From the sequence record NC_004928.1: a stretch of 64,000 nucleotides of DNA; one strand, written 5' to 3'. This document shows positions 7,904 through 49,286 of the stretch, one piece after another. The translations under genes and the position numbers were made by a program. The notes beneath the pieces were generated by a model. It was given only the letters and a program-made list of their open reading frames with translations. It was not told the DNA's origin and ran no database searches. This DNA comes from Escherichia phage RB69. Within the stretch, counting starts at the first letter, position 1. Each line of letters opens with the position of its first letter.

Positions 7904-9475
7904 ATGAAATTTAATATCTTAAGTTTGTTTGCTCCATGGGCAAAAATGGACGAACGTGATTACAAAGACCAAGAAAAAGAAAATTTAGAATCGATCACCT
8001 CACCAAAATTAGACGACGGCGCTAAAGAATACGAAGTATCTGAAAATGAAGCACAGCAAACATATAATGCTATGTTTCAGAGAATGTTCGGTAGCCAAGA
8101 ACCAGGGCTCAAATCAACGCGTGAATTAATCGATACGTATCGAAATTTGATGACGAACTATGAAGTGGATAATGCAGTCTCTGAAATAGTTTCCGATGCT
8201 ATCGTATATGAAGATGATACAGAAGTCGTTTCTATAAATTTAGACAACACAAAATTTAGTCCAAATATCAAATCAATGATGTTGGATGAATTTAACGAAG
8301 TGTTAAATCATTTATCTTTCCAACGTAAAGGTTCAGATCATTTTAGACGTTGGTATGTGGATTCTCGAATTTTCTTCCATAAAATTATTGACCCTAAACG
8401 CCCTAAAGAAGGTATTAAAGAGCTTCGTCGTTTAGACCCACGTCAAGTTCAATATGTCCGTGAAGTTATTACAACCACTGAAGCCGGTGTTAAAATAGTC
8501 AAGGGTTATAAAGAATATTTCATTTATGACACATCACACGAATCTTATGCTTGTGATGGTCGCATATATGAAGCTGGCACAAAAATAAAAATCCCTAAAG
8601 CCGCGATTGTTTATGCCCATTCTGGTTTAGTTGATTGTTGTGGTAAAAATATCATTGGTTATTTGCATCGGGCTATTAAGCCGGCGAACCAATTAAAACT
8701 TCTTGAAGATGCCGTCGTAATTTATCGTATTACTCGTGCTCCTGATCGTCGTGTATGGTATGTTGATACAGGTAATATGCCTTCAAGAAAAGCAGCAGAA
8801 CATATGCAACATGTTATGAATACGATGAAAAACCGTATTGCATATGATGCTACCACAGGCAAGATTAAAAACCAACAGCATATTATGTCGATGACCGAAG
8901 ATTATTGGTTACAACGACGTGATGGTAAAGCAGTAACAGAAGTTGATACATTACCAGGTGCAGATAATACTGGAAATATGGAAGATGTACGTTGGTTCCG
9001 TAATGCGCTTTATATGGCTTTACGTATTCCTATTACCCGTATTCCAAGTGACCAAGGTGGTATACAGTTTGATGCTGGTACTTCTATTACACGAGATGAA
9101 TTGTCATTTGGTAAATTTATTCGTGAGCTGCAACATAAATTTGAAGAGATATTCCTAGACCCGCTTAAAACTAATTTAATTCTTAAAGGAATTATTACAG
9201 AAGATGAGTGGAACGATGAAATAAATAATATTAAGATAAAATTTCATCGGGATAGTTATTTCTCGGAATTAAAGGATGCTGAGATTCTGGAGCGTCGAAT
9301 TAATATGCTTCAGATGGCCGAACCATTTATTGGTAAATATATTTCTCACAGAACAGCTATGAAAGATATTCTTCAGATGTCTGACGAGGAAATTGAACAA
9401 GAGGCTAAGCAAATTGAAGAAGAGTCGAAAGAGGCTCGTTTCCAAGACCCCGACCAAGAACAAGAGGATTTTTAA
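7904..9475 (+). CDS. 20: Portal vertex protein gp20
   Basis: ORF 7892..9475; T4 gp20 begins MKFN, and the first ATG sits inside the GGAGAA Shine-Dalgarno, so start set to 7904; C-terminus identical to recalled T4. Confidence 0.93.
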
Positions 9476-29250: not shown

Positions 29251-29308
29251 AACGGTTTCCTCATGTTGTTGATGGGATGATAGTATAACACATCCATGTG
29301 CTTGTAAA

Positions 29309-31396
29309 CTATCCTTGGACAAATTTAAACGGAACTGATTCTAAATCCATTAAAGATGCTAACAATTTCAAACCTTTAGGTGCGCTAGTTTTTTCTACAA
29401 ATGAAGAGAACGATACCGGCTCATCTGATTCGATTTCACCTGTCATAGCAACCACCTCACCTGTTTCCATGAGAACATCACCATCATAAATGACAGCTTC
29501 ATCTAACTGGTCTGAGGACATGACTTCAGCTTGAATAAATTTAAGGTTGGATTCTAAACCTGCACCAGTGTCAGATGACGCATCTGTAATTTTATTTATC
29601 TGCAAGAGAATGCCTCTAGGCAAAATAATTTCTTGCTCATTAGGGTGATTACTCAACTGTCCTGGATAAATCACGTTAACTTTATGAGCACCATCAATAG
29701 CCCATCCAACGTTAACACGGATTTGTTCTGGTGCATGCATAGCTGTTCTTACTTGACTAGGAGAAATAGTAACACCTTCGTCATTATTGTCAATGTTAAG
29801 CTCTTTGCGAACGTTCTTCAGGAGCAAGTCCAAGGGCAACGTTCTCTTTAAACCCACCGAAAATAATAGGAGCTTGTGAAGTGGAAACATAGTTTCTGAA
29901 GTAGAATACCTTATTTTTAACCATTGCTTCGTAAATAGGCATTCTGATAGACTGAGCTCTATATAACGTTTGTCCTTCAGGTAACGGTCTCCATTTAAAA
30001 ACGCCGAATCAAGACCATCAATAGCGCGTTTAACTTCATCTTCATCTGCAACATCGTAAAAATCTGGTTTATAACGACCTAACAACATATTATTGATATC
30101 GGTATACGCAGAAGAGGCATATTCACGAATAGCTCGTTTTTCAGCAACAGAGTATTGTTTAGGGTCCCGATTCATTGTTATATTAAAGGTGCCTCTAGCC
30201 GATTCTCGTGCATAAGTATACATCACATTAGACAAGAACGCTGATTTACGTTGTTTCCAAGTTTTTTCAGATACTTCAGCTAAAACGTCGTCGGCCAGTT
30301 GGAAATTATCACGTCTAAAATCTTCAAACCATTCGTCTTTAATAGAGTCTGCAATCTCATTTGCAGCTTCAACAAAAGCAGCTAATGCTTTAACAGATGT
30401 TGTTTTTTCAGTTTTAATTTTCTTAGCAAACTTTTCTAAAGTTGGCTTAATAACACCACCATAAGAAACTTCATCAGCAAATTTAAAGGATTCATCAATA
30501 CGATTATAAATCTTATTTTCGATATCAGCAACTAAAGTGCCTTTTGCTGTGGACGATGCTTGGGCTAGTACTATTTCATATGCTTCAGGAAGTAATTCGG
30601 CTGTAGCCGGGCCACTAACTTCTTTAGCAGAATTTTCGTATTTCTGGAATAACTCACCTTCTTGGCGGTCCGCTTCTAAAGATTGACTTGCTGCAATAGC
30701 ACGACGAGAAATTTTAGTACGAGCAATAACAGGCTTATCTTTACGTTTTTCTTCTACAGCAGCAATAGAACCAGCGATAGCCGTTTCTTTGGTGACCTTT
30801 TCGCCAGTCTTTTTACTCACATAAACTTCGCCAACATCAGAATCTACTTTCGTGTACAACTCTGTGTTAATGTTAGGGATGCCTTTAATATCTTCAATGT
30901 TGGCATTTTTACGAACCATCATCACATAGGTGTGTTTACCTGTGAATTGATACATTGCCGACAATACTTTAAAACGACCACCGGTTTTAGTAGAAACTAA
31001 ACGAGCAAGAAGAGTTTGAAGCTGCTGTCCACGTCCTTTCAATTTCTTGGTAGGGAATCGGAACAGAACTGCATCCATACGAAGAGCTTTAACCTGTTCA
31101 TATACTGTATTGAAAATGGTGTTGATTGCATCAATAGGAGCAGGACCAAGGCCATTTTTCAATTCAGCGAGATTACCCTTTTCAGATAGACTCATAATAA
31201 CAACATGAGCGTATTTGTCGCCAAGTTTAACTTGTTTTACAGCATCACCTTCGGAAAGGTAAGAGAATAAGCGAACTACGATGTTTGTATCGATATCACC
31301 AATTTTCCAGACTTGTGGAACTTTAGCTTTAGGGTTCAAATTGACGACAGGAAGACTGCCTTCAGATTCAAACACTTCATTTAATTGTTCAGACAT
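29309..31396 (-). CDS. alt: Alt ADP-ribosyltransferase; the ORF is open (695 codons) but the catalytic R/STS region appears out of frame
   Basis: Position next to gene 30 as in T4; ExE-like NEQEIILPRG in frame; LYR and YVSTS motifs present only in an alternative frame across about 29800-30008. Confidence 0.8.
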   Translation of the reverse strand: MSEQLNEVFESEGSLPVVNLNPKAKVPQVWKIGDIDTNIVVRLFSYLSEGDAVKQVKLGDKYAHVVIMSLSEKGNLAELKNGLGPAPIDAINTIFNTVYEQVKALRMDAVLFRFPTKKLKGRGQQLQTLLARLVSTKTGGRFKVLSAMYQFTGKHTYVMMVRKNANIEDIKGIPNINTELYTKVDSDVGEVYVSKKTGEKVTKETAIAGSIAAVEEKRKDKPVIARTKISRRAIAASQSLEADRQEGELFQKYENSAKEVSGPATAELLPEAYEIVLAQASSTAKGTLVADIENKIYNRIDESFKFADEVSYGGVIKPTLEKFAKKIKTEKTTSVKALAAFVEAANEIADSIKDEWFEDFRRDNFQLADDVLAEVSEKTWKQRKSAFLSNVMYTYARESARGTFNITMNRDPKQYSVAEKRAIREYASSAYTDINNMLLGRYKPDFYDVADEDEVKRAIDGLDSAFLNGDRYLKDKRYIELSLSECLFTKQWLKIRYSTSETMFPLHKLLLFSVGLKRTLPLDLLLKNVRKELNIDNNDEGVTISPSQVRTAMHAPEQIRVNVGWAIDGAHKVNVIYPGQLSNHPNEQEIILPRGILLQINKITDASSDTGAGLESNLKFIQAEVMSSDQLDEAVIYDGDVLMETGEVVAMTGEIESDEPVSFSSFVEKTSAPKGLKLLASLMDLESVPFKFVQG

Positions 31397-34892: not shown

Positions 34893-35180
34893 TTAGAACC
34901 TCATCTGAAAGCCATGTGATTTAACATTACCGCCGCCAATATCAGAAATGTTAATTTCACTTGCAATCGAAGGATCGATGTCAATTTCACGATTAAGTTT
35001 AGTGATAGCCAAAGTATCATGCCCATTTACTGTACGAAACTCCAAAGGACATACTACGTTGACATAGTGTTTAATTGACTCGCTAGTAGGTTGCAAATGG
35101 ACCGGAAGGTTTTTAGGTGCTTTAGAGAAAACAACTTCACAAAAGTTTTTGCGGGTATCAAAATAAGTGGTCATAAACAT
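34893..35180 (-). CDS. Hypothetical protein (95 aa; start MFMTTYF)
   Basis: ORF 34893..35237; SD GAGGAAA precedes the ATG at 35180; upstream ORF sequence is a UUCG-type hairpin (35198-35213). Confidence 0.5.
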   Translation of the reverse strand: MFMTTYFDTRKNFCEVVFSKAPKNLPVHLQPTSESIKHYVNVVCPLEFRTVNGHDTLAITKLNREIDIDPSIASEINISDIGGGNVKSHGFQMRF

Positions 35181-35220
35181 AATATTTTCCTCAATTGGGA
35201 AGCCGAAGCTCCCAGTTAAA

Positions 35221-35586
35221 TTAGATATCGAATTCATTAAGAACTACATCAAAGATTGCTTCGAGATGTTCAGGTTTAGCTCGGTTACTCAGGATATGAC
35301 GAATCCAAGTTTTAACCAAAAGTTTACGATTAACACCGTTCCAGCAAGGATGAGTACCTAAATCACGCTGACGGAAATCATCATCTAATGCAATTTTGAA
35401 GTTGGAACCTTCCATCGTGATTGAAACCGTGATGCCATTTTCAAATCGCATATAAACGTAATTAGGAGTCATGCACTGTTCGATTTCACAAACTGTACCG
35501 TTTTTGTGTTTCCATAAGCAAATAACTTCAGAAGAACCAGCGATACCGTTAGAAACATATTTACGTTCGAAGTTGATGTAGTTCAT
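35221..35586 (-). CDS. Hypothetical protein (121 aa)
   Basis: ORF with GGAG SD; preceded by a PeSL-like promoter cassette. Confidence 0.55.
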   Translation of the reverse strand: MNYINFERKYVSNGIAGSSEVICLWKHKNGTVCEIEQCMTPNYVYMRFENGITVSITMEGSNFKIALDDDFRQRDLGTHPCWNGVNRKLLVKTWIRHILSNRAKPEHLEAIFDVVLNEFDI

Positions 35587-35614
35587 TTTATTCTCCAGAT
35601 GTTTAAGTTGTTTG

Positions 35615-35656
35615 TTGGTACAGGTCTATAATAACATATCCTGTACCAAAGTAAAC
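35615..35656 (-). promoter_or_regulatory. Early promoter (GTTTAC, 17 nt, TATTAT) with the -10 inside a perfect 10-bp inverted repeat (TTGGTACAGG/CCTGTACCAA); PeSL-like
   Basis: Read on reverse complement. Confidence 0.6.
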
Positions 35657-35661
35657 ATTTT

Positions 35662-36033
35662 TTATTTGATTTTTGTCCACTTAGCTGAATCAATAACACC
35701 TTTTGCTTTAATCTTCTCGATTAATGACTCTGCGCGATTTCTGGCATTTTCGTACCATACAACGTCTTCAGAGTAACCAGTTTCTTCATCTTCGTAAGTT
35801 TTAGAACGAATACAGCCATAAACTGTAGAATTCAGACGGTAAATTTCACCAGTGAAAAAGTTTTCGATTTCGATATGATAACAAAAATCGTCTGAAGGGC
35901 CATCAGGAGTTGTACAATAAACCACATCACCTTGAACTGAACGAACCATCCACTGTAACTCGTTAACAACTTGAGATTTATATCCATCATGGTCACGGCA
36001 TTTAATTGTAGCATTTAAATTGATAGTGTTCAT
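35662..36033 (-). CDS. Hypothetical protein (123 aa)
   Basis: ORF; same translation-initiation context as the neighbouring 121 aa gene. Confidence 0.55.
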   Translation of the reverse strand: MNTINLNATIKCRDHDGYKSQVVNELQWMVRSVQGDVVYCTTPDGPSDDFCYHIEIENFFTGEIYRLNSTVYGCIRSKTYEDEETGYSEDVVWYENARNRAESLIEKIKAKGVIDSAKWTKIK

Positions 36034-36074
36034 TTTATTCTCCGGTTGTTTTATTGATTAGGTGGTACAAGTCT

Positions 36075-36103
36075 ATAGAAACACATCCTACAGGAGAGTA
36101 AAC
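36075..36103 (-). promoter_or_regulatory. Putative early promoter (GTTTAC, 17 nt, TTCTAT), a diverged copy of the 35615-35656 cassette
   Basis: About 75 percent nucleotide similarity to 35581-35661 by eye. Confidence 0.4.
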
Positions 36104-36134
36104 ATCTTTTTAAACTTTTTCTGCCCTAAACGCA

Positions 36135-36157
36135 CAAAAGGGAGACCGAAGTCTCCC
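36135..36157 (-). terminator. Rho-independent terminator (GGGAGAC-UUCG-GUCUCCC plus U-run) after the small basic-protein gene
   Basis: Same 18-nt hairpin as at 13234 and 50032. Confidence 0.75.
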
Positions 36158-36162
36158 TAAAA

Positions 36163-36342
36163 TTATGCAACAACCTTTCCAAAACGAGAAGCATCATCTC
36201 GAAGAACTGCACGTGCTCTGCGCATGATCTTCTCAACGGTTTGATTAATACGAGAGTTCGACCCACGCTTGTATCCAGCGCGTTTAGAGGTACCATCAAC
36301 TTTCTTTTCAACTGCTTTCTTTGCTTTAGCTTGTTTTGCCAT
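36163..36342 (-). CDS. Small lysine/arginine-rich protein (59 aa), missed by the ORF track
   Basis: MAKQAKAKKAVEKKVDGTSKRAGYKRGSNSRINQTVEKIMRRARAVLRDDASRFGKVVA; T4-typical codons; terminator immediately downstream. Confidence 0.55.
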   Translation of the reverse strand: MAKQAKAKKAVEKKVDGTSKRAGYKRGSNSRINQTVEKIMRRARAVLRDDASRFGKVVA

Positions 36343-36605: not shown

Positions 36606-36854
36606 TTACTTCAGGGTAATAACAAAATGACGTACTGCTTTACGAGCCGCAGAAGCCAGAGGCTTAGCAAATTTCAGTTCATCTTTAGCTTCCAGTTCAG
36701 CAGCCAGAGTAGCCTGAGCAGGATTCAGATGTTTGAAATAACGCAGGATTTCCAGTGCTTCGGCTTCAACATCAATAGATGCGCCGTAATTGTCATGGCC
36801 GTTATTCCATGCATGGCGTTGCAGTTCAAGAGCGTGTTGTAATTGTTTAATCAT
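36606..36854 (-). CDS. rIII: rIII lysis-inhibition accessory protein
   Basis: 82 aa, same length and position as T4 rIII. Confidence 0.85.
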   Translation of the reverse strand: MIKQLQHALELQRHAWNNGHDNYGASIDVEAEALEILRYFKHLNPAQATLAAELEAKDELKFAKPLASAARKAVRHFVITLK

Positions 36855-38502: not shown

Positions 38503-38516
38503 TGTGTTGGTAGAGT

Positions 38517-38547
38517 TATAGTATCACAACTCCACCATGTTGTAAAC
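38517..38547 (-). promoter_or_regulatory. Putative early promoter (GTTTAC, about 19 nt, TACTAT) with a short inverted repeat flanking the -10
   Basis: Read on reverse complement. Confidence 0.35.
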
Positions 38548-40615: not shown

Positions 40616-40643
40616 TTAGATTTCCTCAATTATCCATAGGAGC

Positions 40644-40673
40644 ATTATACTCTGCTCCCGAGAGTTTGTAAAC
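40644..40673 (-). promoter_or_regulatory. Early promoter (GTTTAC, 17 nt, GTATAAT) with a 6-bp inverted repeat (GGAGCA/TGCTCC) flanking the -10
   Basis: Read on reverse complement. Confidence 0.6.
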
Positions 40674-49247: not shown

Positions 49248-49286
49248 GATAGGGCTACTATAAAATAGCCCTATCTTGTTATAAAC
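49248..49286 (-). promoter_or_regulatory. Putative early promoter (GTTTAT, 17-18 nt, TATAGT) with the -10 inside a perfect 10-bp inverted repeat (GATAGGGCTA/TAGCCCTATC); PeSL-like
   Basis: Read on reverse complement. Confidence 0.45.

What the first reader, a model, noticed from the sequence alone, without database searches (positions are those of the whole stretch)
35581..36110. Duplicated promoter-leader cassettes with the -10 inside an inverted repeat (PeSL-like)
Regions 35581-35661 and 36021-36105 are diverged copies of each other (about 75 percent similarity by eye). Each carries a GTTTAC -35, 17-nt spacer and -10, with a 10-bp perfect inverted repeat (TTGGTACAGG/CCTGTACCAA) bracketing the -10 in the first copy. 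They drive two unrelated ORFs that share an identical SD and MN start. Similar units occur at 40640-40673 and 49248-49286. This matches the promoter-early stem-loop cassettes proposed to shuffle accessory ORFs in T4-type genomes.
Basis: partly seen in the sequence, partly recalled or inferred. Interest (0 to 1): 0.5.

Follow-up and report, generated by a model that had tools for sequence, protein, structure and literature searches.

The report
Repeated early-promoter cassettes flanking gene 30.8
Two similar ~90-bp early-promoter/ribosome-site cassettes of a T4-like (Mosigvirus) phage flank the hypervariable accessory gene 30.8, and one has its -10 box inside a conserved hairpin-forming inverted repeat; this is a further example of the already described 'PeSL' cassettes of T4-type phages, not a new kind of element.

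Summary
On the minus strand, the cassettes upstream of genes 30.7 (copy 1) and 30.8 (copy 2) align at 83%. They are the 2nd most similar of 561 early-promoter cassette pairs in a near-identical genome. Copy 1 has GTTTAC-N17-TATTAT, with a perfect 10-bp inverted repeat (IR) around the -10. Copy 2 has lost that IR. Its -10 reads TTCTAT here but TACTAT in the six close relatives compared, and a terminator-like hairpin lies upstream of it.

The IR is not chance. In three genera, 43-50% of early-type promoters carry a 5-6 bp or longer repeat around the -10, against 8-17% for non-cognate arm pairs (p<5e-5). Arm sequences covary among paralogs. Orthologous 30.7 promoters in distant genera keep an IR with quite different arms.

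Against a sister phage, DNA identity is 96-100% in both flanks and 58-80% inside 30.8. The breakpoints lie at the two cassettes.

The molecular role of the hairpin is unresolved. It is not an intrinsic terminator and does not hide the ribosome site. I favour an RNA hairpin that forms only in read-through transcripts. This is a known kind of element, of modest interest.

The parts
36136..36158 (-). Terminator-like hairpin AGGGAGAC-TTCG-GTCTCCCT followed by TTTT, just after the stop codon of gene 30.9. It is the upstream stem-loop of the copy 2 cassette.
   Evidence: Sequence; folded. The orthologous site in SA79RD is annotated as a rho-independent terminator by two programs. The simple scan missed it, and I have not verified why (possibly its T-run rule).
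36031..36110 (-). Copy 2, the P30.8 cassette. AT-rich upstream stretch; -35 GTTTAC at 36103-36098; TCTCC (36097-36093) complementary to its own SD; -10 position TTCTAT at 36080-36075; CTTGTACCAC (36071-36062), homologous to the copy 1 right arm but without a partner; SD GGAGA at 36043-36039; ATG at 36033-36031.
   Evidence: TACTAT is found in the six close relatives compared; the A-to-T change at -11 was seen only in this window.
35662..36033 (-). Gene 30.8 (123 aa, Pfam PF06019), the hypervariable allele lying between the two cassettes.
   Evidence: It is 57% identical to the SA79RD allele, 39% to T4 and 64% to a Klebsiella Jiaodavirus. DNA identity to SA79RD drops to 58-80% only inside this ORF.
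35584..35660 (-). Copy 1, the P30.7 cassette. -35 GTTTAC at 35656-35651; left IR arm TTGGTACAGG at 35649-35640; -10 TATTAT at 35633-35628; right IR arm CCTGTACCAA at 35624-35615; SD GGAG at 35596-35593; ATG at 35586-35584.
   Evidence: The IR is conserved in T4, Gaprivervirus and JS98-like phages, and is replaced by different arm pairs in more distant genera.
35221..35586 (-). Gene 30.7 (121 aa, Pfam PF06919), a conserved gene driven by copy 1.
   Evidence: It is 93-100% identical across E. coli T-even phages.
40639..40673 (-). Another early-promoter cassette: GTTTAC-N18-TATAAT with the IR GGAGCA (40658-40653) / TGCTCC (40644-40639) around the -10.
   Evidence: Its paralog family covaries: GGGAGC/GCTCCC, GAGAGC/GCTCTC, GGGACC/GGTCCC and GGGGTC/GACCCC.
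49248..49286 (-). Another early-promoter cassette: GTTTAT-N18-TATAGT with the 10-bp IR GATAGGGCTA (49275-49266) / TAGCCCTATC (49257-49248).
   Evidence: The ECO111 ortholog carries the G.T intermediate AGGGCTA/TAGTCCT.
38509..38547 (-). Another early-promoter cassette: GTTTAC-N18-TACTAT with the IR GGTGGAGTT (38536-38528) / AACTCTACC (38517-38509), which has one G.T.
   Evidence: The orthologs are GTAGAG/CTCTAC in ECO111 and GGTAGAG/CTCTACC in T4.
29275..29309 (-). Another early-promoter cassette: GTTTAC-N18-TACTAT with the IR GGATG (29295-29291) / CATCC (29279-29275).

Best explanation
These are two members of the genome-wide family of T-even early-promoter cassettes called PeSLs (promoter-early stem-loops). 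Each cassette is a self-contained expression unit for one small accessory gene. It comprises an AT-rich UP-like stretch, a GTTTAC -35, a 17-18 nt spacer, a -10, a short leader, GGAG and ATG.

The cassettes are repeated dozens of times per genome and are shared between related phages. They therefore act as patches of homology at which recombination exchanges the ORF lying between two of them. Here that ORF is gene 30.8, which is a swapped allele bounded by copy 2 and copy 1.

In about half of the cassettes, including copy 1, the promoter spacer is complementary to the 5-12 nt that follow the -10. This complementarity is selected as a structure, not as a sequence. The predicted transcription start lies at or inside the 3' arm, so the promoter's own transcript cannot form the hairpin. 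Only RNA reading through from upstream can.

I infer that the hairpin marks the 3' boundary of the upstream transcription unit, acting as an attenuator or as an exonuclease barrier, without burdening the downstream mRNA.

Status of each step:
- Shown: the anatomy, the repeat family, the IR enrichment and covariation, and the mosaic boundaries.
- Inferred: promoter activity, recombination at the cassettes as the cause of the mosaic, and the RNA-level role of the hairpin (the weakest step).
For: Identity and context:
- The window is a Mosigvirus-type T-even phage.
- The genes are 30.9, 30.8, 30.7 and 30.6.
- In phage SA79RD the ortholog of copy 1 is annotated as a T4-type early promoter.

Family:
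- GTTTAC-N16-18-TANNNT occurs 14 times in the window, against 3.2 expected.
- There are 34-42 such cassettes in the near-identical genome ECO111 5-P.
- The copy 1/copy 2 pair ranks 2nd of 561 pairs for similarity.

IR selection:
- In the window, 5 of 12 promoters have a -10-bracketing stem of at least 5 bp, against 14% for non-cognate arms (permutation p=0.005).
- In ECO111, 17/34 have at least 5 bp (against 17%) and 15/34 have at least 6 bp (against 7.6%), p<5e-5.
- In TH44 (Gaprivervirus, where the -35 is GTGTAC), 10/22 have at least 6 bp, against 9.7%, p<5e-5.
- In T4 1-50 kb, 2/10 against 4.4%, p=0.013.

Covariation:
- The paralog stems GGGAGC/GCTCCC, GAGAGC/GCTCTC, GGGACC/GGTCCC and GGGGTC/GACCCC sit in otherwise similar spacers.
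- There is a series AGGACTA/TAGTCCT, then AGGGCTA/TAGTCCT, then AGGGCTA/TAGCCCT.
- Orthologous P30.7 keeps an IR of 8-12 bp, but with unrelated arms, in Yersinia phage MHG19 (ATTGCTGATTGA/TCAATCAGCAAT), Klebsiella Jiaodavirus (TTGGGTGGT/ACCACCCAA) and PG7/Proteus phage (CTCCGTTGTAT/ATACAACGGAG).

Mosaic:
- Against SA79RD, identity is 96-100% from 30.9 through copy 2, 58-80% inside 30.8, and 94-100% from the GTTTAC of copy 1 onward.
- gp30.8 exists in at least four allele classes, while gp30.7 stays at 93-100%.
- IME341 combines a JS98-type P30.8 cassette with an SA79RD-type 30.8 ORF.
- In JS98-like phages the two cassettes share an identical 47-nt 3' half.
- Karamvirus, Jiaodavirus and Gelderlandvirus have one or two extra ORFs inserted between 30.8 and the P30.7 cassette.

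Literature:
- PeSL definition, stem-loop positions, promoter and terminator assays, and crossovers between the SD and -10 boxes (PMC2839356).
- PeSLs in T4/PST (PMC4122927).

RNA-level hint: sense strands fold better than antisense strands (mean -7.9 against -6.4 kcal/mol, p=0.007; z -2.4 against -1.5).
Against: - Nothing here measures promoter activity, transcript ends or recombination.
- Copy 2 lacks the IR, and in this window it has a crippled -10 (TTCTAT). The two copies are therefore not functionally equivalent.
- About half of the early promoters have no such IR, so it is not required for promoter function.
- No T-run follows the hairpins, and the loops are 8-20 nt. Classical intrinsic termination is unlikely.
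- The excess of G.T over A.C in stems (4:0 among paralogs, 4:0 between window and ECO111) is not significant, because non-cognate arm pairs already give 68:23 by composition. A DNA-level role is therefore not excluded.
- The sharp identity drop in 30.8 shows allele replacement, but it does not prove that the cassettes rather than general homology caused it.
Confidence: 0.75

Rival explanations
1. These are ordinary, independent early promoters. The similarity of the two copies only reflects the shared promoter and SD consensus, and the inverted repeat in copy 1 is a chance or historical feature with no function.
For: - All early promoters of these phages share the -35, TGn/-10, a conserved AGACCTATCAAC-like start region and GGAG-N-ATG, so some similarity is automatic (mean 46% outside the hexamers).
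- Copy 2 works without the IR in relatives, and about half of the promoters lack one.
Against: - The pair ranks 2nd of 561 (z=3.4).
- IRs are enriched 3-6 fold over non-cognate arm pairs in three genera, with p<5e-5.
- There are compensatory changes among paralogs and complete arm replacement among orthologs.
- The copy 1 fold has z=-4.5.
Confidence: 0.07
2. The inverted repeat is an intrinsic (rho-independent) terminator for the upstream gene 30.8, overlapping the next promoter. The orthologous site in phage SA79RD is annotated this way, and the PeSL papers propose it.
For: - A WebGeSTer terminator annotation overlaps the promoter in SA79RD.
- Arbiol 2010 report that one RB49 PeSL stem-loop reduced lacZ expression as strongly as rrnB T1.
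- The hairpin lies about 20 nt after the 30.8 stop codon and is stable as RNA (-16.7 kcal/mol).
Against: - The stem is followed by CAAACAACTT, not a U-run. The loop is 15 nt, against 3-8 nt for typical terminators. The consensus scan finds no terminator there.
- The same holds for the other -10-bracketing hairpins, which are followed by ATCAAC-type sequence.
- The canonical terminator in this region is the separate GC-rich hairpin plus T-run at 36136-36158.
Confidence: 0.12
3. The hairpin makes translation depend on the proximal promoter. [quoted passage not shown] In the promoter's own transcript the 5' arm is missing and the site is free. This is the device known for T4 e, soc, 49 and I-TevI with late promoters.
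For: - The orthologous P30.7 of PG7 and a Proteus phage pairs 11 nt of the spacer with ATACAACGGAG, which covers the SD.
- T4 P30.8 pairs TCCTTTG with CAAAGGA at the SD.
- ECO111 promoters at 92577 and 134014 have perfect 12-14 bp spacer/SD repeats that differ by compensatory changes.
- Copy 2 has TCTCC facing GGAGA.
- The known precedent is reviewed in PMC3014915.
Against: - The copy 1 right arm ends 28 nt before the ATG, and its ribosome-site accessibility is the same in read-through and own transcripts (0.65 and 0.65).
- Genome-wide, the accessibility in read-through RNA is no lower than with swapped or shuffled promoter parts (0.494 against 0.480 and 0.510, p about 0.6).
- For copy 2 the rank is 16 of 33.
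Confidence: 0.04
4. The repeat acts in DNA, not RNA. It could be a cruciform or hairpin that tunes or shuts off the promoter with supercoiling, a recombination or template-switch hotspot, or the binding site of a dimeric protein.
For: - The IR is equally stable on both DNA strands (-9.1 and -8.9 kcal/mol).
- The arms sit exactly in the promoter positions that RNA polymerase leaves unconstrained.
- The shut-off of T4 early promoters is mechanistically unexplained (PMC3014915).
- The T4 RefSeq record notes that the 14-bp loop of one such promoter IR was once reported in inverted orientation.
- Arbiol 2010 speculate about a stem-loop-binding recombination protein.
Against: - Arm sequences differ between promoters and between genera, so a sequence-specific protein is unlikely.
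- Short stems (5-7 bp) with 8-15 nt loops extrude poorly as cruciforms. This rests on established knowledge and was not tested here.
- Sense strands fold better than antisense strands relative to their own shuffles.
Confidence: 0.12

Closest known systems
PeSL (promoter-early stem-loop) cassettes of T4/PST, the T-even subgroup (Comeau, Arbiol & Krisch 2014, PMC4122927)
   Same: Same architecture and consensus: AT-rich stretch, TTTACW-N17-TAYWAT, AGNA-loop-TCNT-type stems (here AGGA..TCCT, AGGT..ACCT, GGTACAGG..CCTGTACC), SD and ATG. They lie between small accessory ORFs and sit next to ORF replacements between close relatives. The T4 ortholog of copy 1 carries the same IR.
   Different: The host phage here is a Mosigvirus, not T4 or PST. 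The paper's text does not mention the 30.7/30.8 locus. Its figure legend places the stems 'just upstream' of the promoter, whereas here they bracket the -10. No statistics or covariation analysis turned up in the parts of the papers I read.
PeSLs of RB49/phi1 (Arbiol et al. 2010, PMC2839356)
   Same: A composite promoter plus stem-loop repeated in hyperplastic regions. The stem-loop most often lies between -35 and -10 or overlaps the -10. Crossovers map between the SD and -10 boxes. The element mediates ORF deletion, insertion and replacement.
   Different: The RB49 promoters are near-perfect TTGACA/TATAAT and the stems are G-run/C-run. Here the -35 is GTTTAC and the stems are mixed-sequence and weaker. 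Mini-circles and promoter/terminator activities were shown only for RB49/phi1.
Early-promoter/stem-loop elements of the T-even internal-protein loci (Repoila et al. 1994, as described in Arbiol 2010)
   Same: They are based on T4 early promoters, have AT-rich variable stem-loops, and flank shuffled small genes.
   Different: They are at a different locus. I could not read the 1994 paper itself, so the comparison rests on the description in PMC2839356.
T4 promoter-inside-hairpin translational control of e, soc, 49 and I-TevI (reviewed in Uzan & Miller 2010, PMC3014915)
   Same: A promoter lies within the DNA that encodes the 5' arm of a hairpin. Long transcripts therefore fold, and the promoter's own transcript does not. 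A subset of early cassettes in related phages pairs the spacer with the SD.
   Different: The known cases use late promoters and always sequester the SD or AUG. The copy 1 hairpin ends 28 nt before the ATG and does not change ribosome-site accessibility.

Membership tests
PeSL (Arbiol 2010; Comeau 2014) | Intergenic position between small, mostly accessory ORFs of a hyperplastic region | tested here: met
   The cassettes lie between 30.9/30.8 and 30.8/30.7 in the gene 30-rIII accessory block.
PeSL (Arbiol 2010; Comeau 2014) | AT-rich stretch followed by a sigma70-type early promoter (T-even form TTTACW-N17-TAYWAT) | tested here: met
   Copy 1 reads aaaaaat-GTTTACT-N17-TATTAT. Copy 2 reads GTTTACT-N17-TTCTAT in this window, which fails TAYWAT at position 2, but TACTAT in the six close relatives compared.
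PeSL (Arbiol 2010; Comeau 2014) | A stable stem-loop within or next to the promoter (between -35 and -10, overlapping -10 or -35, upstream, or downstream) | tested here: met
   Copy 1 has a 10-bp perfect IR enclosing the -10 (-16.7 kcal/mol, z=-4.5). Copy 2 has only the upstream GC-rich hairpin at 36136-36158; its promoter-internal fold is not significant (z=-0.9).
PeSL (Arbiol 2010; Comeau 2014) | SD and start codon of the downstream gene at the 3' end | tested here: met
   GGAGAATAAAATGAAC is found in both copies.
PeSL (Arbiol 2010; Comeau 2014) | Many copies per genome | tested here: met
   About 12 are in the window, and 34-42 are in the near-identical genome ECO111 5-P.
PeSL (Arbiol 2010; Comeau 2014) | Association with insertion, deletion or replacement of the flanked ORF between related phages | tested here: met
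   The 30.8 allele is replaced, with breakpoints at the two cassettes. Extra ORFs lie between 30.8 and the P30.7 cassette in other genera.
PeSL (Arbiol 2010; Comeau 2014) | Demonstrated early promoter activity, attenuator/terminator activity of the stem-loop, and formation of mini-circles | not testable with these tools
   These need reporter fusions, transcript-end mapping and inverse PCR on infected cells.
Intrinsic (rho-independent) terminator | GC-rich stem, short loop (3-8 nt), then a U-run | tested here: not met
   The copy 1 IR has a 15-nt loop and the tail CAACAAACAACTT, and gets no hit in the consensus scan. By eye the separate hairpin at 36136-36158 does look like one (GC-rich stem, TTCG loop, TTTT tail), although the scan did not call it; two programs annotate its SA79RD ortholog as a terminator.
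T4 promoter-in-hairpin translational control (type e/soc/49/I-TevI) | The 3' arm of the hairpin sequesters the SD and/or start codon in long transcripts | tested here: not met
   The copy 1 right arm ends 28 nt before the ATG. Accessibility is 0.65 in both transcript forms. There is no genome-wide effect against swapped promoters. The feature is met only by a few other cassettes, such as ECO111 92577 and 134014 and PG7 P30.7.
Rfam RNA families | Match to a curated covariance model at gathering score | tested here: not met
   Only two sub-threshold chance hits were found, both at the 36136-36158 hairpin.

The most novel reading that the evidence does not exclude
The -10-bracketing inverted repeat is a general, structurally selected design feature of T-even early promoters, present in about 45% of them across Mosigvirus, Gaprivervirus and Tequatrovirus. 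It is placed so that the hairpin exists only in RNA arriving from upstream and never in the promoter's own transcript. It would then serve as a compact insulator between adjacent early transcription units, as a 3'-end barrier or attenuator. Alternatively, acting in DNA, it could be the cis element behind the still unexplained rapid shut-off of early promoters. On either reading it would be more than a passive patch of homology for recombination.
Probability: 0.3. Interest if true: 0.5.

Novelty: new member of a known kind. Interest (0 to 1): 0.3.

Why it matters
This locus is a clean, textbook-quality example of the proposed PeSL mechanism. A hypervariable accessory gene (30.8) is bounded on both sides by conserved promoter cassettes, with allele breakpoints at the cassettes. 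That supports the view that T4-type phages swap accessory genes as ready-to-express units.

The added value here is quantitative. Inverted repeats around the -10 are enriched several-fold and covary in three genera. The stem-loop part of PeSLs is therefore under selection as a structure, and not just a by-product of the promoter consensus. What that structure does is still open, and it is directly testable with arm-breaking and compensatory mutants.

Tried and rejected
1. SD sequestration as the general role of the hairpins. Ribosome-site accessibility is lower in read-through than in own transcripts (0.49 against 0.61). The effect disappears against swapped or shuffled promoter controls, so I rejected this role for copies 1 and 2.

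2. G.U against A.C asymmetry, as proof that the structure acts in sense RNA. The counts are 4:0 among paralog stems and 4:0 between window and ECO111. Composition alone gives 68:23 for non-cognate arms, so the test is not decisive. The sense/antisense energy difference is only suggestive.

3. Collecting more natural variants of the P30.7 hairpin from IMG/VR with two degenerate patterns and with the gp30.7 protein. These returned only the same 14 T-even contigs plus apparently unrelated matches that I did not inspect, so no new variants were gained.

4. Orthology-based counting of stem substitutions against TH44 and T4. Beyond about 85% identity the promoters are replaced rather than mutated and the alignments are unreliable. 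Only the close comparison was used.

5. Rfam. Nothing was found.

6. Literature search for high-resolution T4 5'/3'-end maps that could show ends at these hairpins. None was found in the library. The Hinton 2010 and Nolan 2006 reviews mention extra consensus in early promoters but no inverted repeats.

7. The idea that the copy 2 left arm (CCTGTAGG) is a simple inversion of the copy 1 arm (GGTACAGG). The registers do not fit a clean inversion, so I left it as a remark only.
Full report
**What is in the sequence**

The window is a T-even phage of the Mosigvirus type. Its best DNA matches are Escherichia phages ST2, FL31 and phage 55, at about 97%. All genes around the finding lie on the minus strand. 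By comparison with T4 and with phage SA79RD they are:
- rIII (36606-36854)
- 30.9 (36163-36342)
- 30.8 (35662-36033)
- 30.7 (35221-35586)
- 30.6 (34893-35237)

The assignments rest. Pfam confirms Phage_30_8 and Phage_T4_Gp30_7.

Read on the minus strand, copy 1 is: aaaaaat GTTTAC t-TTGGTACAGG-atatgt-TATTAT-aga-CCTGTACCAA-caaacaacttaaacatct-GGAG-aataaa-ATG, the start of 30.7. Copy 2 is: aaaaagtttaaaaagat GTTTAC TCTCCtgtaggatgtgt TTCTAT agaCTTGTACCACctaatcaataaaacaacc-GGAGA-ataaa-ATG, the start of 30.8. Copy 2 is preceded by the GC-rich hairpin AGGGAGAC-TTCG-GTCTCCCT plus TTTT, immediately after the 30.9 stop codon.

**Check of the observation**

- The two cassettes align at 83%.
- They share an identical 16-nt SD-to-second-codon block.
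- The two proteins are unrelated.
- The 10-bp repeat of copy 1 is perfect. It folds at -16.7 kcal/mol as RNA (z=-4.5) and at about -9 kcal/mol as DNA on either strand.
- Only six distinct perfect repeats of at least 10 bp with short loops exist in the 64 kb. Two of them enclose early -10 boxes.
They have GGAGCA/TGCTCC and GATAGGGCTA/TAGCCCTATC around their -10.

There is one correction. The -10 position of copy 2 reads TTCTAT in this window, but TACTAT in the six close relatives I compared. This window therefore carries a single change at the most critical promoter base, or a sequencing error there. Copy 2 also has no significant internal hairpin (z=-0.9).

**Is the similarity more than shared consensus?**

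I assembled the whole genome of a near-identical but unannotated relative, ECO111 5-P. I then extracted 34 early-type cassettes by criteria that ignore the spacer and the start region. Outside the two hexamers, cassette pairs are 46% identical on average. The copy 2/copy 1 pair is 73% identical, which ranks 2nd of 561 pairs (z=3.4).

In T4 the two orthologous cassettes are not specially alike. In JS98-like phages their 3' halves are identical over 47 nt. The resemblance is therefore lineage-specific, as expected from exchange between neighbouring cassettes.

**Is the inverted repeat more than chance?**

I compared each promoter's spacer with the 14 nt after its own -10. As the control I used the same comparison with the 14 nt after every other promoter's -10, which keeps both composition and consensus.

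| Data set | Cognate arms | Non-cognate arms | Permutation p |
|---|---|---|---|
| Window, stem of at least 5 bp | 5/12 | 14% | 0.005 |
| ECO111, at least 5 bp | 17/34 | 17% | <5e-5 |
| ECO111, at least 6 bp | 15/34 | 7.6% | <5e-5 |
| TH44 (Gaprivervirus, -35 is GTGTAC), at least 6 bp | 10/22 | 9.7% | <5e-5 |
| T4, first 50 kb, at least 6 bp | 2/10 | 4.4% | 0.013 |

The arms differ between promoter sub-families and covary.
- The 'aaactctt..cagag' spacer family occurs with GGGAGC/GCTCCC, GAGAGC/GCTCTC, GGGACC/GGTCCC and GGGGTC/GACCCC.
- AGGACTA/TAGTCCT is linked to AGGGCTA/TAGCCCT (window 49286) through the G.T intermediate AGGGCTA/TAGTCCT.

At the orthologous position upstream of 30.7, the results are as follows.
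- T4, Gaprivervirus and JS98-like phages keep (TT)GGTACAGG/CCTGTACC(AA), sometimes extended to 12 bp.
- Yersinia phage MHG19 has ATTGCTGATTGA/TCAATCAGCAAT.
- A Klebsiella Jiaodavirus has TTGGGTGGT/ACCACCCAA.
- Cronobacter phage S13 has GCAAGG/CCTTGC within a longer imperfect pair (my reading: 12 of 13 positions).
- PG7 and a Proteus phage have CTCCGTTGTAT/ATACAACGGAG.

The repeat is thus conserved as a structure while its sequence is free. That argues against chance and against a sequence-specific protein site.

**Is there a shuffling signature?**

Yes. Against SA79RD, another Mosigvirus, identity runs as follows:
- 96-100% from 30.9 through the terminator and copy 2 up to the ATG of 30.8;
- 58-80% through the 30.8 ORF;
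- 94-100% again from the GTTTAC of copy 1 onward.

Further points support exchange at the cassettes.
- gp30.8 of the window is 57% identical to the SA79RD allele, 37-40% to the T4 and JS98 alleles, and 58-64% to alleles of Klebsiella, Cronobacter, Enterobacter and Proteus phages. gp30.7 remains 93-100% identical among E. coli T-evens.
- IME341 combines a JS98-type P30.8 cassette with an SA79RD-type ORF, so crossovers occur at the cassette/ORF junction.
- Karamvirus, Jiaodavirus, Gelderlandvirus and MHG19 carry one or two extra ORFs between 30.8 and the P30.7 cassette.
- Arbiol et al. mapped their mini-circle crossovers between the SD and -10 boxes of flanking PeSLs. That is the same kind of junction.

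**What the hairpin does**

This is the unresolved part.

With a start about 7 nt after the -10, the promoter's own RNA begins inside or after the 3' arm. Only RNA coming from upstream can form the hairpin.

It is not a classical terminator. The loops are 8-20 nt, and the tails read ATCAAC or CAACAA rather than a U-run. One annotation pipeline nevertheless called the SA79RD ortholog a terminator.

I tested the attractive idea that it works like the T4 e/soc/49/I-TevI hairpins, hiding the ribosome site in long transcripts. A few cassettes do look like this:
- PG7 P30.7 and T4 P30.8;
- ECO111 92577 and 134014, with perfect 12-14 bp spacer/SD repeats that differ by compensatory changes.

For copy 1, however, the accessibility of the ribosome site is identical in both transcript forms. 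Genome-wide there is no effect beyond swapped or shuffled promoter controls. I therefore reject it for this finding.

Sense strands fold better than antisense strands relative to their own shuffles, and all single mismatches in good stems are G.T on the sense strand. Composition alone favours G.T about 3:1, so this only leans towards an RNA-level role.

My preferred reading is a boundary hairpin for the upstream unit, acting as an exonuclease barrier or attenuator. Its overlap with the promoter spares the downstream mRNA and saves space. This is an inference. A DNA-level role (cruciform, template switching, promoter shut-off) is not excluded.

**Comparison with what is known**

The element fits the published PeSL definition feature by feature. 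That includes the statement that the stem-loop most commonly lies between -35 and -10 or overlaps the -10 (PMC2839356). It also includes the T-even consensus TTTACW-N17-TAYWAT with AGNA-loop-TCNT stems (PMC4122927).

The 30.7/30.8 locus itself is not mentioned in the text of the 2014 paper. Reviews of T4 early promoters note extra conserved positions but no inverted repeats.

The finding is therefore a new member of a known kind. Interest is modest, at about 0.3. What this analysis adds is the quantitative enrichment and the covariation evidence for the stem-loop component.

Noticed in passing
window 36075-36080 (minus strand): The -10 of the 30.8 promoter reads TTCTAT here, but TACTAT in ST2, phage 55, S143_2, SA79RD, ECO111 5-P and an IMG/VR contig. 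It is a single A-to-T change at the critical -11 position, seen only in this sequence among those compared. It is either a real promoter-down mutation or a sequencing error.
   Followed up: partly
L002 (T4 NC_000866) 9294-9321, i.e. T4 133293-133320; ortholog of window 38509-38547: The T4 RefSeq record carries a note at 133300-133313: 'inverted complement of previously reported sequence; corrects the early promoter Pe133295'. By my indexing, that 14-bp piece is exactly the loop (with the -10) between the arms GGTAGAG/CTCTACC of this promoter's inverted repeat. Either a hairpin-related sequencing artefact or a real IR-mediated flip was once recorded there.
   Followed up: no
L025 about 42677 (ECO111 92577), L026 about 34214 (ECO111 134014), L018 1426-1494 (PG7), L002 6254-6311 (T4 P30.8): In a subset of early cassettes the spacer directly after the -35 is a long anti-SD. 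Examples are TTCTCCTCTAGT / ACTAGAGGAGAA and TTCTCCAGTAGTTG / CAACTACTGGAGAA (perfect 12-14 bp, differing by compensatory changes), and CTCCGTTGTAT / ATACAACGGAG in PG7. Read-through RNA would bury the ribosome site, but the promoter's own RNA would not. This device is known for T4 late promoters (e, soc, 49, I-TevI). It did not turn up for early promoters in my searches of two reviews. It is not a general property.
   Followed up: partly
L028-L031 (TH44, Gaprivervirus), e.g. genome positions 43697, 44007, 94235, 116623: Most early-type promoters of this genus use GTGTAC instead of GTTTAC as the -35. Only 5 fit the strict GTTTAC pattern, against 34 in the Mosigvirus. They have their own favourite -10-bracketing arms, TGGGATA/TATCCCA.
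   Followed up: partly
window 35662-36033 and loci L001-L022: Gene 30.8 is hypervariable. The window allele is nearer to alleles of Klebsiella, Cronobacter and Enterobacter phages (60-64% aa identity) than to the allele of other E. coli Mosigviruses (57%) or of T4 (39%). The neighbouring 30.7 and 30.9 are almost invariant.
   Followed up: partly
L004, L008, L016 (JS98-like phages), upstream of 30.8 and 30.7: The two cassettes share an identical 47-nt 3' half, TATAGACCTGTACCAAATAATACGAAAACAAACTGGAGAATAAAATG. This is evidence of recent exchange or conversion between neighbouring cassettes within one genome.
   Followed up: no
L017-L021 (MHG19, PG7, Klebsiella Jiaodavirus, Proteus and Cronobacter phages), about 900-1430 in each locus: One or two extra ORFs of about 130-175 aa (phrog_5804 in one annotation) sit between 30.8 and the 30.7 promoter cassette. 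In the loci I checked (PG7, the Jiaodavirus) there is too little intergenic room for a promoter cassette of their own.
   Followed up: no
window and ECO111, the 12 nt after many early -10 boxes (e.g. window 49999, 35656, 36103, 13591): Many early promoters share a conserved start region, AGACCTATCAAC (variants AGTCCTATCAA and CATCCTATCAA). This is a further conserved block beyond -35/TGn/-10. Its CCT/TCC part often forms the 3' arm of the repeat.
   Followed up: no
L032 (OM982647.1, Escherichia phage ST2): This best-matching record is a 171-kb T-even genome, but its taxonomy line files it under Guernseyvirinae; Kagunavirus. That looks like a database mislabel.
   Followed up: no
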